The position numbers and the translations under genes are program-made. This document shows positions 36,578 to 63,116 of a stretch of DNA of 64,000 nucleotides, piece after piece. The number at the start of each line of letters is the position of its first letter. Position 1 is the stretch's first letter. This DNA comes from the human T2T-CHM13v2.0 reference genome, Homo sapiens. The notes under the pieces are model-generated. The model worked only from the letters and a program-made list of their open reading frames with translations. It had not been told where the DNA came from and ran no database searches. Location: assembly GCA_009914755.4 (NCBI GenBank), contig CP086569.2, positions 12,896,001-12,960,000 on the forward strand, read 5' to 3'.

Positions 36578-36860
36578 GGCCAGGAGCAGTGGCTCACACC
36601 TGTAATCCTAGCAGTTGAGGAGGCTAAGCTGGAAGGATTGCTTGAGGCCAAGAATTTAGACCAGTCTGGACAATACAGTGAAACCATCTCTACCATTTTT
36701 TTTAATTAGGTGGATGTGTTGGCATATGCCTGTAGTCCCCCCTACTTGGCAAACAGAGGTAGGAGGATTGCTTGAACCCAGAAGTTGGGGGATGCATTGA
36801 GTTATGATTGTGCTACTGCACTCTAATATGGGGGATAAAGCAAGACCTTGTTTCTAAAAA
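36578..36860 (+). mobile_element. Alu (older, AluJ-like), followed by (TA)n at about 36862-36915
   Basis: ggccaggagcagtggctcacacctgtaatcctagcagttgaggaggctaagctggaaggattgcttgaggccaagaatttagaccagtctggacaatacagtgaaaccatctctacc... Confidence 0.88.
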
Positions 36861-37019
36861 TATATAATACATATAAGTATATATATATATATAATATATA
36901 TTATGTATACGTATATGAACTTAAAGCATTAGGAACTCACTTGAGTATATGGTGTGAAACCAAGATCTAACTTTGTTTTACCTGAATATTAAACCACTTA
37001 TTCTAATATCATGTATTAG

Positions 37020-37966: not shown

Positions 37967-38337
<371 letters not shown>

Positions 38338-60618: not shown

Positions 60619-60920
60619 GGTTAGGACTACAATTTCTCTCACCAAATCTCATTCAGATCATGACCTAATTAGCAAACAAGACTACGAGTCATTCCTGGAC
60701 CGACCTGACCTTTTTCTTTATATATACCAAAGCTTTCTGTGTTTCAGCTGACTAAATGAGTGGAATTCAGTATGGAGCAGCCAGTTTATGAGGACACTGT
60801 GAGGATTTAACATATTACGGTGGGGTTGCAGATTAAATCCACACAGGGACTTAAAAAAAATGGAAACATTACAATATAAGATACAGAGATGAAACACTTC
60901 CAGGCTTTAAGAAAATGTAA

Positions 60921-61245
60921 GGCTGAGCACAGTGGCTTATGCCTGTAAATCTAAGCACTTTGGGAGACTAAGGACAGAGGATTGCTTGGGGCCAGGAGTT
61001 TAGACTAGACTTGAGGCTAGTTAAGGCAAAAAAGTGAAACCTTTTGTCTACAAAAAAAAAAAAAAACTAAAAATTTACTTGGGTGTGATGTCATGTGCCT
61101 GTTGTCCCAGCTACTGGGTAGGCTGAGGCAGGAGGATGACGTGAGCCCAGGAGTTTGAGGTTGTAGTGAGCCATGATTGCACCATTGCTCTCCAGCCAGG
61201 GGAACAGAGCAAGGTCCTGTCTGTAAAATAATAATAATAAAATTT
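60921..61245 (+). mobile_element. Alu with an A-rich linker and tail
   Basis: ggctgagcacagtggcttatgcctgtaaatctaagcactttgggagactaaggacagaggattgcttggggccaggagtttagactag...ctgggtaggctgaggcaggaggatgacgtgagcccaggagtttgaggttgtagtgagccatgattgcaccattgctctccagcc...aataataataataaaa. Confidence 0.9.
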
Positions 61246-61365
61246 TACAAAGAACAAAAGAGGATATCTAACAAAATTGAAAGAATGGTATCAGAATATA
61301 ACTTGGGCAAGGTATAACTATATAAATAAGAAGAGGTAGTGGTCCACAGCCTACTTTCTAAACCT

Positions 61366-61636
61366 CTGAGCAGTCAATGATCCCAATTTCCTGACCTCTT
61401 ATCCTCTACAATCCCCTGAAAAACTACAGCTCAGAACTCCACAGGGAGACAGATTTGAGGGTTTCCTCCCATTTTCTCACTCAGTGTCCTACAATTATTA
61501 AGCTCTTTCTCTGCTGCAAACCCCGCTGTCTCAGAGTATTGGTTTTTTTACTGCACAGTGGACATTCAGACCCAGTGGTCCTATAACACATAGTTCAAGA
61601 CAGCTGTTGTTGGGTAAGTCAGGTCCTGCTTGTATG
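61366..61636 (+). repeat. 271-bp direct repeat, copy R2, about 96% identical to R1
   Basis: ctgagcagtcaatgatcccaatttcctgacctcttatcctctacaatcccctgaaaaactacagctcagaactccacagggagacagatttgagggtttcctcccattttctcactcagtgtcctacaattattaagctctttctctgctgcaaaccccgctgtctcagagtattggtttttttactgcacagtggacattcagacccagtggtcctataacacatagttcaagacagctgttgttgggtaagtcaggtcctgcttgtatg. Confidence 0.9.
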
Positions 61637-61726
61637 TCTCCCCATTCAGCGAGCTGCAAATAACAACATACACCTGTAAATCAGAGTCAAGTGAGTTTCA
61701 TTAATGACTAACTCAAGGCTCCTTTA

Positions 61727-61804
61727 ACCTATTTACAACCAAGACGGTGGCCCACTGTGAGTCTCATGAGTCTCACAGTGGGCCGCCATCTTTGTTGTAA
61801 ATAG
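61727..61804. repeat. 78-bp near-perfect palindrome (inverted repeat, about 39-bp arms with 4 mismatches) bounded on both sides by TTAA. A candidate piggyBac-like MITE or hairpin.
   Basis: TTAA|cctatttacaaccaagacggtggcccactgtgagtctca·tgagtctcacagtgggccgccatctttgttgtaaatagg|TTAA. The reverse complement of the right arm, cctatttacaacaaagatggcggcccactgtgagactca, differs from the left arm at 4 of 39 positions. Confidence 0.7.
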
Positions 61805-62294
61805 GTTAATGACTCCAAGGATCATTTTTTCAGACTTGCACTCTCTTTCATGGTGAATGTGTTTTATAGCATTCCTTTTTACAAAAATGTAATGAAAACT
61901 ACTGATAATGAACACTGACAATGAATGCTCAAATAATTTTCAAACATGTATTTGAGGCTGTAACTGTAATATAAAACAGAAATGTAACAGAAAAGCAACT
62001 TCTCTTATTTTAAAACACTACGGCATTTTAATAGGTAAATGGTAAGGTAGGGATGGAAAAAAAGACCCACAGGTTTGCTTTAGATAGAATCATTGAGATA
62101 GATACCAGAACTGCCAACACTTGTGTGTTGTGTTGGCAACTCAAATAGCAGCAGGAGGATTTCCATAGATAGTGTTTTCCAAAGTGGTGACTAGTTCTTG
62201 ATCAGGTTCTGATCGAAGCAACTGACTGCAGTCCTCTGTTTCCACTGGTTTGCTTTCTTGTGAATTTCATCTTGTGAATTAAAACTGTTCAAAC

Positions 62295-62440
62295 GTGGAT
62301 GGAACTGGAGGTCATTACATTAAGTGAGATAAGCCAGTCACTGGAGAACAGCACATATTCTCACTCCTGTTTGGGAACTCAAAAAAGTGGAGCTCATGTA
62401 GATAGAATGTAGAATGGGGATTACCAGAGTCTGGGGAGAG
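62295..62440 (+). mobile_element. Ancient L1 (L1M-type) 3'-end fragment
   Basis: tggatggaactggaggtcattacattaagtgagataagccagtcactggagaacagcacatattctcactcctgtttgggaactcaaaaaagtggagctcatgtagatagaatgtagaatggggattaccagagtctggggag resembles the L1M 3' region (...atggatgaacctggaaaacatcatgctaagtgaaataagccagacacaaaaggacaaatactgtatgattccacttatatgaggtacctagaatagtcaaattcatagagacagaaagtagaatggtggttgccaggggctgggg). Confidence 0.55.
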
Positions 62441-62507
62441 AAGTCTCACAGTGGGCCACCATCATGAGTCTCAAAATGGGCTGCCATCTTAGTGGTAAAT
62501 AGGTTAA
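62441..62507. repeat. Related partial copy of the 61727-61804 palindrome arm, ending in the same ...ggtaaatagg|TTAA terminus and carrying an internal duplication of the gtctcaNNNtgggcNNccatc motif
   Basis: aagtctcacagtgggccaccatcatgagtctcaaaatgggctgccatcttagtggtaaataggTTAA compared with the right arm tcatgagtctcacagtgggccgccatctttgttgtaaataggTTAA. Confidence 0.6.
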
Positions 62508-63116
62508 TAGAGACTTGCTTTAGTCCTTGATGAAACCCACTTGAATATGTGTTGAATACCTAGAATAGACAGCCACAGTAGGTGTCCATTAATTTCAAAA
62601 ATTAGTATTTGCAAGCAAATTTATTCAGATGAGAAGTCTTCATGAAAACTAACCTTCTTGGGTAAGCAGGATGAAGCTGTTTGTGAGTATAACAGTGAGT
62701 CATTGAATGAATATATTCCTACCTAATAGATTATAACATGTCCTAGCTTATTGAGGCAAATTATAAAAATATTATTAAGAACAACCATTTATCACACAAT
62801 GTTTGGACTATTGCAAATTTCTTGTTTCTTGCTGTCAAAATTAAATCTATGGCATGTACTCAATGATCCTTCATGGAGGGAACTCCCCTTACTATTTTTA
62901 ATTTTCAGTTTATTTTTAACAGACAAATAATAATTTCATGTATTTATGCATTAAAAGGTGATTTTTTACACATTTATACATTGTGGATTTAACAAATCAT
63001 GCTAATTAAAATAATCATCACTTCACATATTTGTTATTTCTTTATGGTGAGATCATTTGAAATCCAATTCTTAGAGCAATTTAAAAATATACAGTATATT
63101 ATTAACTACAGTCACT

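What the first reader, a model, noticed from the sequence alone, without database searches (positions are those of the whole stretch)
61700..61830. TTAA-bounded 78-bp near-perfect palindrome (candidate piggyBac-type MITE or hairpin RNA), sitting between two copies of an about 20-bp direct repeat. A related half-copy lies 0.7 kb downstream.
The palindrome is ttaa|CCTATTTACAACCAAGACGGTGGCCCACTGTGAGTCTCA·TGAGTCTCACAGTGGGCCGCCATCTTTGTTGTAAATAGG|ttaa. The arms are 39 bp with 4 mismatches, and TTAA on both sides is the piggyBac target-site signature. Human piggyBac-derived MITEs (MER85, MER75 and Looper types) are established, but I cannot match this sequence to one from memory. The flanks are themselves a direct repeat: ttaatgactaactcaaggctcc before and ttaatgactccaaggatc after. 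This suggests either insertion exactly at the boundary of a pre-existing 22-bp tandem duplication or a replication-based origin of the palindrome. A second locus (62441-62507) carries the same right-arm terminus …ggtaaatagg|TTAA with an internal motif duplication. The sequence therefore exists in at least two related copies. An 80-nt perfect hairpin is also the kind of structure that gives rise to MITE-derived miRNA genes.
Basis: partly seen in the sequence, partly recalled or inferred. Interest (0 to 1): 0.55.

Follow-up and report, generated by a model that had tools for sequence, protein, structure and literature searches.

The report
Small palindrome in old L1-rich DNA
An 86-base near-perfect palindrome really exists in this stretch of primate DNA, but it looks like a local copying accident inside old, rearranged repeat sequence rather than a TTAA-inserting jumping gene or a known microRNA gene, so it is most likely ordinary.

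Summary
Window 61724-61809 is a spacer-less palindrome with 43-nt arms (39/43 complementary), TTAA at both ends and CATG at the axis. It is flanked by a ~22-nt direct repeat, and a related copy lies at 62441-62549.

The piggyBac-MITE reading is weakened. Similarity between the left arm and the downstream copy continues 37 nt past the TTAA (88 nt, 80%). TTAA is therefore internal to the repeated unit, and the second copy is not an independent insertion. The right flank (61810/61821-61862) is antisense L1 ORF2. The downstream copy abuts a sense L1 ORF2-end fragment. No Rfam family reaches threshold, and the MER85 hallmark motif is absent.

My best reading (about 0.5) is a replication template-switch or fold-back event in rearranged L1-rich DNA. 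It copied 43 nt in inverted orientation, switching at the palindromic tetranucleotides CATG and TTAA, and has no demonstrated function.

A TTAA- or TA-targeting MITE (about 0.2) or a piece of a named repeat (about 0.2) cannot be excluded. No primate genome, Dfam/Repbase library or small-RNA data could be reached. Interest is low.

The parts
61724..61766 (+). Left arm of the palindrome (TTAA + 39 nt). It is the inner part of repeat unit A.
   Evidence: 43-nt arm, 91% complementary to 61767-61809.
61767..61809 (+). Right arm of the palindrome (39 nt + TTAA), the inverted copy. Its similarity to the other copies stops at TTAAT.
   Evidence: It carries the majority base at every variable site except one.
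61765..61768 (.). Symmetry axis: the palindromic tetranucleotide CATG, with no spacer. Inferred first strand-switch point.
   Evidence: Sequence read. The downstream copy also has ...CTCATGA at this point. The role as a switch point is inference.
61682..61769 (+). Repeat unit A: 42 nt of left flank (the 37 nt next to the TTAA align without gaps with unit C's flank), then TTAA, the arm and 3 nt past the axis.
   Evidence: I1: 88 nt, 80% complementary to 62462-62549; E about 1e-16; flank alignment z = 6.8, 0/5000 shuffles.
62462..62549 (-). Repeat unit C: the same unit in inverted orientation, 692 nt downstream.
62441..62465 (-). Partial 25-nt tandem copy (C0) of the inner arm. It lies directly next to an L1 fragment.
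   Evidence: (D1).
61701..61725 (+). Left copy of the flanking direct repeat (TTAATGACTAACTCAAGGCTCCTTT).
   Evidence: alignment score 13.5, reached by 2 of 5000 shuffles.
61806..61827 (+). Right copy of the flanking direct repeat (TTAATGACTCCAAGGATCATTT). It overlaps the right TTAA and lies in L1-derived sequence.
61810..61862 (-). Context: old L1 ORF2 fragment (codons ...[13 protein letters not shown]...), antisense on the + strand. It ends at or within 11 nt of the right TTAA.
   Evidence: Smith-Waterman, Gumbel p = 3e-4 and 2e-3 against two L1 copies; 0/3000 shuffles; whole-window blastn E = 0.03, 61821-61862.
62293..62437 (+). Context: old L1 ORF2 3' end and start of the 3' UTR, in sense orientation, abutting C0/C.
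   Evidence: nhmmer E = 1.4e-8 and 2.3e-10; motif GATTACCAGAGTCTGGGG at 62419-62436.

Best explanation
The palindrome is a local rearrangement product, not a mobile element. An ~88-nt unit already existed here: flank, TTAA, then a 39-nt segment ending ...GAGTCTCATGA. It sits in a patch of old, rearranged L1 fragments and occurs twice in opposite orientation within 0.9 kb (units A and C).

Inferred steps. During replication or break repair, the growing strand reached the palindromic tetranucleotide CATG. It switched to the complementary strand and copied 43 nt backwards as far as the palindromic tetranucleotide TTAA. It then switched back at a TTAAT(GACT) microhomology.

That single template-switch event (or a short series of them) gives the features seen: a spacer-less inverted repeat, TTAA at both outer ends, and the short direct repeat on either side.

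The product can fold into a ~41-bp hairpin (RNA) or a cruciform (DNA), but nothing indicates that it is used.

Shown: the anatomy, the extension of copy-to-copy similarity across TTAA, and the L1 context. Inferred: the switch points, which arm is the copy, and the absence of function.
For: (1) Similarity between unit A and unit C runs through the TTAA for 37 nt more (88 nt, 80%). The flanks alone align with z = 6.8 and 0/5000 shuffles. TTAA is therefore internal to a pre-existing unit.

(2) The right arm's similarity to A and C stops exactly at TTAAT, as expected for a short inverted copy.

(3) Both junctions are 4-nt palindromes, CATG at the axis and TTAA outside. Such sequences provide the inverted microhomology that a strand switch needs.

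(4) An inverted repeat combined with flanking direct repeats is a listed outcome of template-switching mutations, which can create perfect stems in one event (PMC10710096).

(5) The surroundings are fragments of old L1 in both orientations, and both end at the repeat copies. One is antisense ORF2 at 61810/61821-61862. The other is the sense ORF2 end at 62293-62437. This points to local breakage and rejoining.

(6) There is no further copy in the 64 kb.

(7) No Rfam family reaches threshold.
Against: TTAA on both sides and a terminal C...G are what a piggyBac-type insertion would give. Under my model, the choice of TTAA over other 4-nt palindromes is only moderately likely.

The arm variants form a star: A has 3 private changes, B 0-1, and C 4-5. 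No change is shared by A and B alone, so the sequence does not show the right arm to be younger than the A/C split.

A simple two-switch model predicts that the arm would be copied again after the direct repeat. It is not, so a third switch or a deletion is needed.

The flanking direct repeat is only moderately unusual; 1.8% of genomic control pairs score as well.

Whether L1 continues into the right arm or resumes beyond the palindrome is undecided.

No outgroup sequence was available.
Confidence: 0.5

Rival explanations
1. A non-autonomous cut-and-paste transposon (MITE) inserted into an old antisense L1. It would be 78 bp with a TTAA duplication (piggyBac-like or Kolobok-like), or, parsed differently, 80 bp with a TA duplication (Tc1/mariner-like, the size of MADE1). 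The downstream copy would be a later local duplication of the left half plus its flank.
For: TTAA lies on both sides and the ends read C...G. The first C is the only conserved TIR position in the superfamily (PMC5381638). The L1 ORF2 match on the right ends at the TTAA. With one old L1 copy, the L1 alignment resumes on the far side of the palindrome (p = 0.01). Arm divergence of about 9-20% fits the era of primate DNA-transposon activity; this rests on established knowledge and was not tested.
Against: The only other copy shares the flank beyond TTAA. That requires an extra duplication whose breakpoint falls exactly at the palindrome centre, plus a further tandem duplication (C0). The flanking 22-nt direct repeat would have to be a pre-existing tandem duplication hit exactly at its junction. 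Continuation of L1 on the left is not significant against the L1 consensus. The element is not MER85. The human piggyBac families listed in Repbase are Looper, MER75, MER75A, MER75B and MER85 (PMC5753468); as far as I recall, none is an 80-bp full palindrome.
Confidence: 0.2
2. Units A and C are pieces of a larger, already catalogued interspersed repeat that I could not name without Dfam. Examples would be a particular old L1 subfamily segment, or the two ~88-nt terminal inverted repeats of one ~870-bp element spanning 61682-62549. The palindrome would then be a secondary change, or intrinsic to that family.
For: A and C are inverted 88-nt repeats 692 nt apart. The right flank and the sequence next to C are L1. 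An alignment of the arm colinear with L1 ORF2 codons '...SFAGTWMELE...' is visible and reaches p = 0.0035-0.02 with some L1 copies. C_rc weakly matches another L1 ORF2 segment (nhmmer E = 0.036).
Against: None of the L1 assignments of the arms or of the A/C flanks survives correction for the number of comparisons. The two L1 assignments conflict with each other. There is no target-site duplication around 61682-62549. There is no inverted similarity inside the 692-nt spacer. All copies end at the same internal point (CATG), which retrotransposed L1 copies would not do.
Confidence: 0.2
3. The hairpin is a functional small-RNA precursor (a miRNA or endo-siRNA gene), whatever its origin.
For: The hairpin is very stable on either strand. 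Template-switch hairpins and palindromic MITEs have both given rise to human miRNAs (PMC10710096). Sub-threshold hits to miRNA models were found.
Against: No Rfam family reaches its gathering score (35.7 bits against 97 for the best). The hits go to unrelated animal and plant families, so they reflect generic hairpin shape. A ~41-bp stem with a 4-nt loop is unlike canonical pri-miRNAs, which from established knowledge have a ~35-bp stem and a larger loop. The arm sequences occur in no searchable paper. There is no sign of a gene nearby; every ORF of at least 100 aa that I could place is L1-like, and the rest were not examined.
Confidence: 0.05

Closest known systems
Template-switching mutations (TSMs) that create inverted repeats and hairpins in one step (Löytynoja and co-workers; PMC10710096, PMC8794818)
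   Same: A short inverted copy lies next to its template. Stem pairing is near-perfect. Inverted and direct repeats can occur together. The locus lies next to old transposable elements.
   Different: The arms (43 nt) are at the long end for such events, and there is no loop at all. The pre-event sequence could not be reconstructed, so the four switch points are inferred rather than shown. There is no evidence of transcription or processing.
MADE1 (80-bp palindromic mariner MITE, source of the mir-548 family)
   Same: About 80 bp, almost entirely two inverted arms, and it can be parsed with TA on both sides. It folds into a long hairpin.
   Different: There is no sequence resemblance to the MADE1 terminal repeat as I recall it; this was not tested against a library. 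No dispersed copies were found. The one related copy shares flanking sequence. Rfam gives no mir-548 match.
Human piggyBac-derived MITEs MER85 and MER75 (partners of PGBD3 and PGBD4)
   Same: TTAA on both sides, and ends beginning with C and ending with G.
   Different: MER85 is 140 bp with 13-bp TIRs and an internal 16-bp palindrome GTTCCAtTAtTGGAAC (PMC3459987). That motif is absent here and in the whole window. The ends are CCT/AGG, not CCC/GGG. The whole element is one palindrome rather than short TIRs around unique sequence.
Small inverted triplications / DUP-INV-DUP structures arising from replication errors (PMC13334657)
   Same: A direct-inverted-direct arrangement on a scale of ~100 bp, with short junction microhomology.
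   Different: Only ~22 nt is present in direct duplicate and 43 nt in inverted duplicate, so this is not a full triplication of one segment. The reported average is 148/160/148 bp with a 30-bp spacer.

Membership tests
piggyBac-superfamily non-autonomous element (MITE) | Duplication of a TTAA target site flanking the element | tested here: inconclusive
   TTAA is present at 61724-61727 and 61806-61809. However, TTAA is itself palindromic and simply extends the arms. The left TTAA also lies inside a unit shared with copy C.
piggyBac-superfamily non-autonomous element (MITE) | Terminal inverted repeats beginning with C and ending with G (only the first C is conserved; PMC5381638) | tested here: met
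   The ends read TTAA|CCTATTT...AAATAGG|TTAA (criterion).
piggyBac-superfamily non-autonomous element (MITE) | GGGTTAACCC junction as in T. ni piggyBac hairpin intermediates (PMC4625184) | tested here: not met
   The junctions would read AGGTTAACCT. There is no GGGTTAACCC within 1 mismatch anywhere in the window. This feature is not universal in the superfamily.
piggyBac-superfamily non-autonomous element (MITE) | Several copies at unrelated sites, with similarity ending at the TTAA | tested here: not met
   Within the 64 kb the only other copy shares 37 nt or more beyond the TTAA. Genome-wide copy number could not be tested. Scans of viral, metagenome and prokaryote collections found nothing, but these hold little or no primate DNA.
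MER85 (PGBD3-derived MITE) | About 140 bp, 13-bp TIRs, and an internal 16-bp palindrome GTTCCAtTAtTGGAAC 3 bp inside the 5' TIR (PMC3459987) | tested here: not met
   The element is 78 bp. The motif is absent with up to 3 mismatches in the whole window.
MER75 / MER75A / MER75B / Looper | Sequence similarity to the Repbase consensus | not testable with these tools
The supplement of PMC12324416 that should hold them is stored as images only.
Tc1/mariner MITE (MADE1-like) | TA target-site duplication and similarity to a mariner/Tigger terminal repeat | tested here: inconclusive
   TA is available inside each TTAA, giving an 80-bp element. No library was available to test TIR similarity. No mir-548 match in Rfam.
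Known miRNA family (Rfam 15) | Covariance-model score at or above the family's gathering threshold | tested here: not met
   There are 0 matches at gathering for the whole window. The best sub-threshold match is mir-672 at 35.7 bits against 97.
Template-switch mutation product | An inverted copy adjacent to its template, possibly with accompanying direct repeats (PMC10710096) | tested here: met
   The arms abut with 0 spacer. There is a flanking direct repeat. CATG and TTAA lie at the junctions.
Template-switch mutation product | An outgroup or ancestral sequence that lacks the inverted copy and is explained better by a four-point switch than by linear alignment | not testable with these tools
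   No orthologous primate sequence could be obtained.
L1 twin-priming inversion | An inverted 5' segment joined to a sense 3' segment that runs to a poly(A) tail, flanked by a target-site duplication | tested here: not met
   The copies face each other at the same internal point and lack 3' ends and poly(A). The spacer 61810-62295 shows no antisense match to the adjacent L1 ORF2-end fragment.

The most novel reading that the evidence does not exclude
The 78-bp unit could be a member of a so far uncatalogued, very short palindromic TTAA-targeting MITE family of primates. It might have been mobilised by a PGBD-type transposase, and one copy landed in an old L1. Its hairpin could be a young small-RNA precursor.
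Probability: 0.08. Interest if true: 0.45.

Novelty: new member of a known kind. Interest (0 to 1): 0.15.

Why it matters
If my reading is right, this is one more example of how replication template switching builds long perfect hairpins out of junk DNA. That is the raw material proposed for de novo miRNA genes. It is also a small potential cruciform site. It also shows that TTAA at the ends of a palindrome is weak evidence for piggyBac, because TTAA is itself a palindrome and simply extends the arms. Little else follows from it. If the MITE rival were right, it would add a small family to the short list of human piggyBac-like elements.

Tried and rejected
External copies. I used IUPAC pattern scans of viral contigs, JGI metagenome contigs and prokaryote genome contigs. 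I also ran an L1 ORF2 protein scan of viral contigs to find host contamination. I looked up two window ORFs by exact protein sequence. All returned nothing. These collections evidently hold little or no primate DNA, so the negatives say nothing about copy number.

Literature. Full-text searches for 13-17-nt strings of the arms (DNA and RNA alphabets) and for L1 3'-end strings found nothing relevant. The consensus sequences of MER75, MER85 and Looper were not retrievable.

L1 origin of the repeat unit. I tried several assignments.
- Unit flank as ORF2 '...[16 protein letters not shown]...': nhmmer E = 0.036 for C only, not supported by gapped alignment.
- Unit as L1 3' UTR: based only on my memory of L1M consensus. 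There is no similarity to the L1PA 3' UTRs in the window.
- Arms as ORF2 '...SFAGTWMELE...', colinear with the right flank: visible in MAFFT, but p = 0.08-0.25 against the consensus and 0.0035-0.55 against single copies.
- L1 resuming left of the palindrome: p = 0.2-0.9 and 0.01-0.50.
None is solid, and they are mutually inconsistent, so I leave the origin of the arms open.

Extension of the palindrome beyond the TTAAs: not significant (local p = 0.036; anchored global p = 0.11).

Twin priming: rejected on geometry.

RSS-like heptamer CACAGTG in the arms: there is no nonamer at 12 or 23 nt, so I dismissed it by inspection.

Protein comparison of the 62-aa ORF through the palindrome with L1 ORF2: no alignment.

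The ORF shares no 5-residue word with L1 ORF2, and eukaryotic non-coding DNA is not indexed there.

Full report
WHAT IS THERE

The window is catarrhine primate DNA. It holds a perfect AluY-type 5' end at 37967. Its long ORFs are dominated by L1 ORF1/ORF2 fragments; the remainder were not examined.

At 61724-61809 lies a palindrome with no spacer. Its arms are 61724-61766 and 61767-61809, 43 nt each, 39/43 complementary. The axis falls in the tetranucleotide CATG (61765-61768).

The structure is far beyond chance.
- The arm motif is expected 0.00 times in shuffled windows.
- The RNA fold is -65.1 kcal/mol (z = -11.9) and the DNA fold is -35.9 kcal/mol (z = -12.3).
- It is the only palindrome of its kind in 64 kb. 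All the others are short and mostly AT-rich.

The flanking direct repeat is 61701-61725 against 61806-61827: TTAATGACT..CAAGG.TC.TTT. It is reached by 2 of 5000 shuffles, though by 1.8% of real sequence pairs at the same spacing. It is probably real, but it is not a strong signal.

THE SECOND COPY CHANGES THE PICTURE

The downstream relative is not a half element bounded by TTAA. The left arm together with its left flank (61682-61769) matches 62462-62549 in inverted orientation over 88 nt at 80% (blastn E about 1e-16).

The similarity runs 37 nt beyond the TTAA. The flanks alone align with z = 6.8, and 0 of 5000 shuffles score as well.

The repeated unit is therefore 'flank - TTAA - 39 nt', and TTAA is internal to it. 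The right arm shares only the 43 nt up to TTAAT with the other copies.

The downstream copy carries a 25-nt partial tandem duplicate of the inner arm (62441-62465). No other copy exists in the window.

CONTEXT

The 42-53 nt immediately right of the palindrome are an old L1 ORF2 fragment in antisense orientation, covering the '...[13 protein letters not shown]...' codons.
- Smith-Waterman against two L1 copies of the window gives Gumbel p = 3e-4 and 2e-3.
- 0 of 3000 shuffles score as well.
- A whole-window blastn gives E = 0.03.
The right-hand copy of the direct repeat lies inside this fragment.

The downstream copy abuts a sense-oriented old L1 ORF2 3' end at 62293-62437 (nhmmer E = 1e-8 to 2e-10; motif check).

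A 275-bp direct repeat (60067-60340 and 61362-61636, 95% identical) ends 45 nt left of unit A.

The palindrome thus sits in a patch of broken and re-joined old repeats.

WHAT THE ARMS THEMSELVES DERIVE FROM

I could not settle this. Several L1 assignments look plausible by eye, but none survives correction for the number of comparisons, and they contradict one another.

The key test was whether the L1 sequence to the right continues into the right arm, which would mean no foreign DNA. The alternative is that it resumes on the far side of the palindrome, which would mean an insertion. The test is undecided.

MECHANISM

I favour a template-switch or fold-back event (confidence about 0.5). Under this reading the unit 'flank-TTAA-arm' was already present. 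It exists twice, in units A and C.

The inferred steps are these. A growing strand reached CATG. It switched to the complementary strand and copied 43 nt backwards to TTAA. It then returned at a TTAAT(GACT) microhomology.

Both junctions are 4-nt palindromes, which supply the inverted microhomology such a switch needs. The result is an inverted repeat with accompanying direct repeats. That is one of the outcomes described for template-switching mutations, which can make perfect stems in one step (PMC10710096; see also PMC8794818 and, at a larger scale, PMC13334657).

What is shown is the anatomy, the similarity crossing the TTAA, and the L1 context. What is inferred is the switch points, which arm is the copy, and the lack of function.

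There are weak points.
- The arm variants form a star. A has 3 private changes (2 at CpG), B has 0-1, and C has 4-5. The sequence does not prove that the right arm is younger than the A/C split.
- A third switch or a deletion is needed to explain why the arm is not copied again after the direct repeat.

RIVALS

(i) A 78-bp TTAA-flanked or 80-bp TA-flanked MITE inserted into the old L1 (about 0.2).
- In favour: TTAA on both sides, ends C...G (the only conserved TIR position in the superfamily; PMC5381638), and an L1 match that stops at the TTAA.
- Against: the shared flank of the only other copy, the need for extra duplications with a breakpoint at the palindrome centre, and the coincidence of landing exactly at the junction of a tandem duplication.
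- It is not MER85. That family's 16-bp internal palindrome (PMC3459987) is absent, and the size is wrong.

(ii) A piece of a larger catalogued repeat, or the two terminal inverted repeats of one ~870-bp element at 61682-62549 (about 0.2). There is no target-site duplication and no internal inverted similarity.

(iii) A functional small-RNA gene (about 0.05).
- No Rfam family reaches its gathering score.
- The sub-threshold hits are to unrelated animal and plant miRNA models, and so reflect generic hairpin shape.
- A ~41-bp stem with a 4-nt loop is not pri-miRNA-like.
- The arm sequences appear in no searchable paper.

LIMITS

No primate genome, Dfam/Repbase library or small-RNA data could be reached. 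All scans of the available collections returned nothing. They are uninformative, because those collections hold little or no primate DNA.

The copy number in the genome and the state of the orthologous site are therefore untested. These are the two results that would decide between the local-rearrangement reading and the MITE.

VERDICT

This is most likely an ordinary by-product of local rearrangement in L1-rich DNA, an instance of a known kind of event. Interest is low (0.15).

Noticed in passing
window 54259-56480 and 56476-58690: A ~2.2-kb head-to-tail duplication of the 3' half of an L1 (ORF2 C-terminal region and 3' end), about 90% identical between copies.
   Followed up: no
window 60067-60340 and 61362-61636: A 275-bp direct repeat, 95% identical and 1296 bp apart, enclosing an Alu (about 60920-61230). 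It could be an LTR pair or a segmental duplication. The second copy ends 45 nt left of repeat unit A.
   Followed up: partly
window 61682-61769 and 62462-62549: The two 88-nt units are inverted repeats around a 692-nt spacer. This is the layout left by a small inversion with duplicated ends. I found no way to test it without outgroup sequence.
   Followed up: partly
window 1-28000 versus 44000-60000: AT skew flips from about -0.34 to +0.33 across the window. In the ORF list, L1 ORFs lie mostly on the - strand up to about 23 kb and on the + strand from about 51.8 kb.
   Followed up: no
window 36859-36916: A cluster of overlapping AT-rich (TA-type) palindromes. It is the only other place in the window with spacer-less inverted repeats of more than 20 nt.
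   Followed up: no
window 61733-61921 (- strand): A 62-codon ORF stays open from the L1-derived right flank through most of the palindrome. It has no BLASTP similarity to L1 ORF2 copies of the window and is not on record as a called gene.
   Followed up: yes
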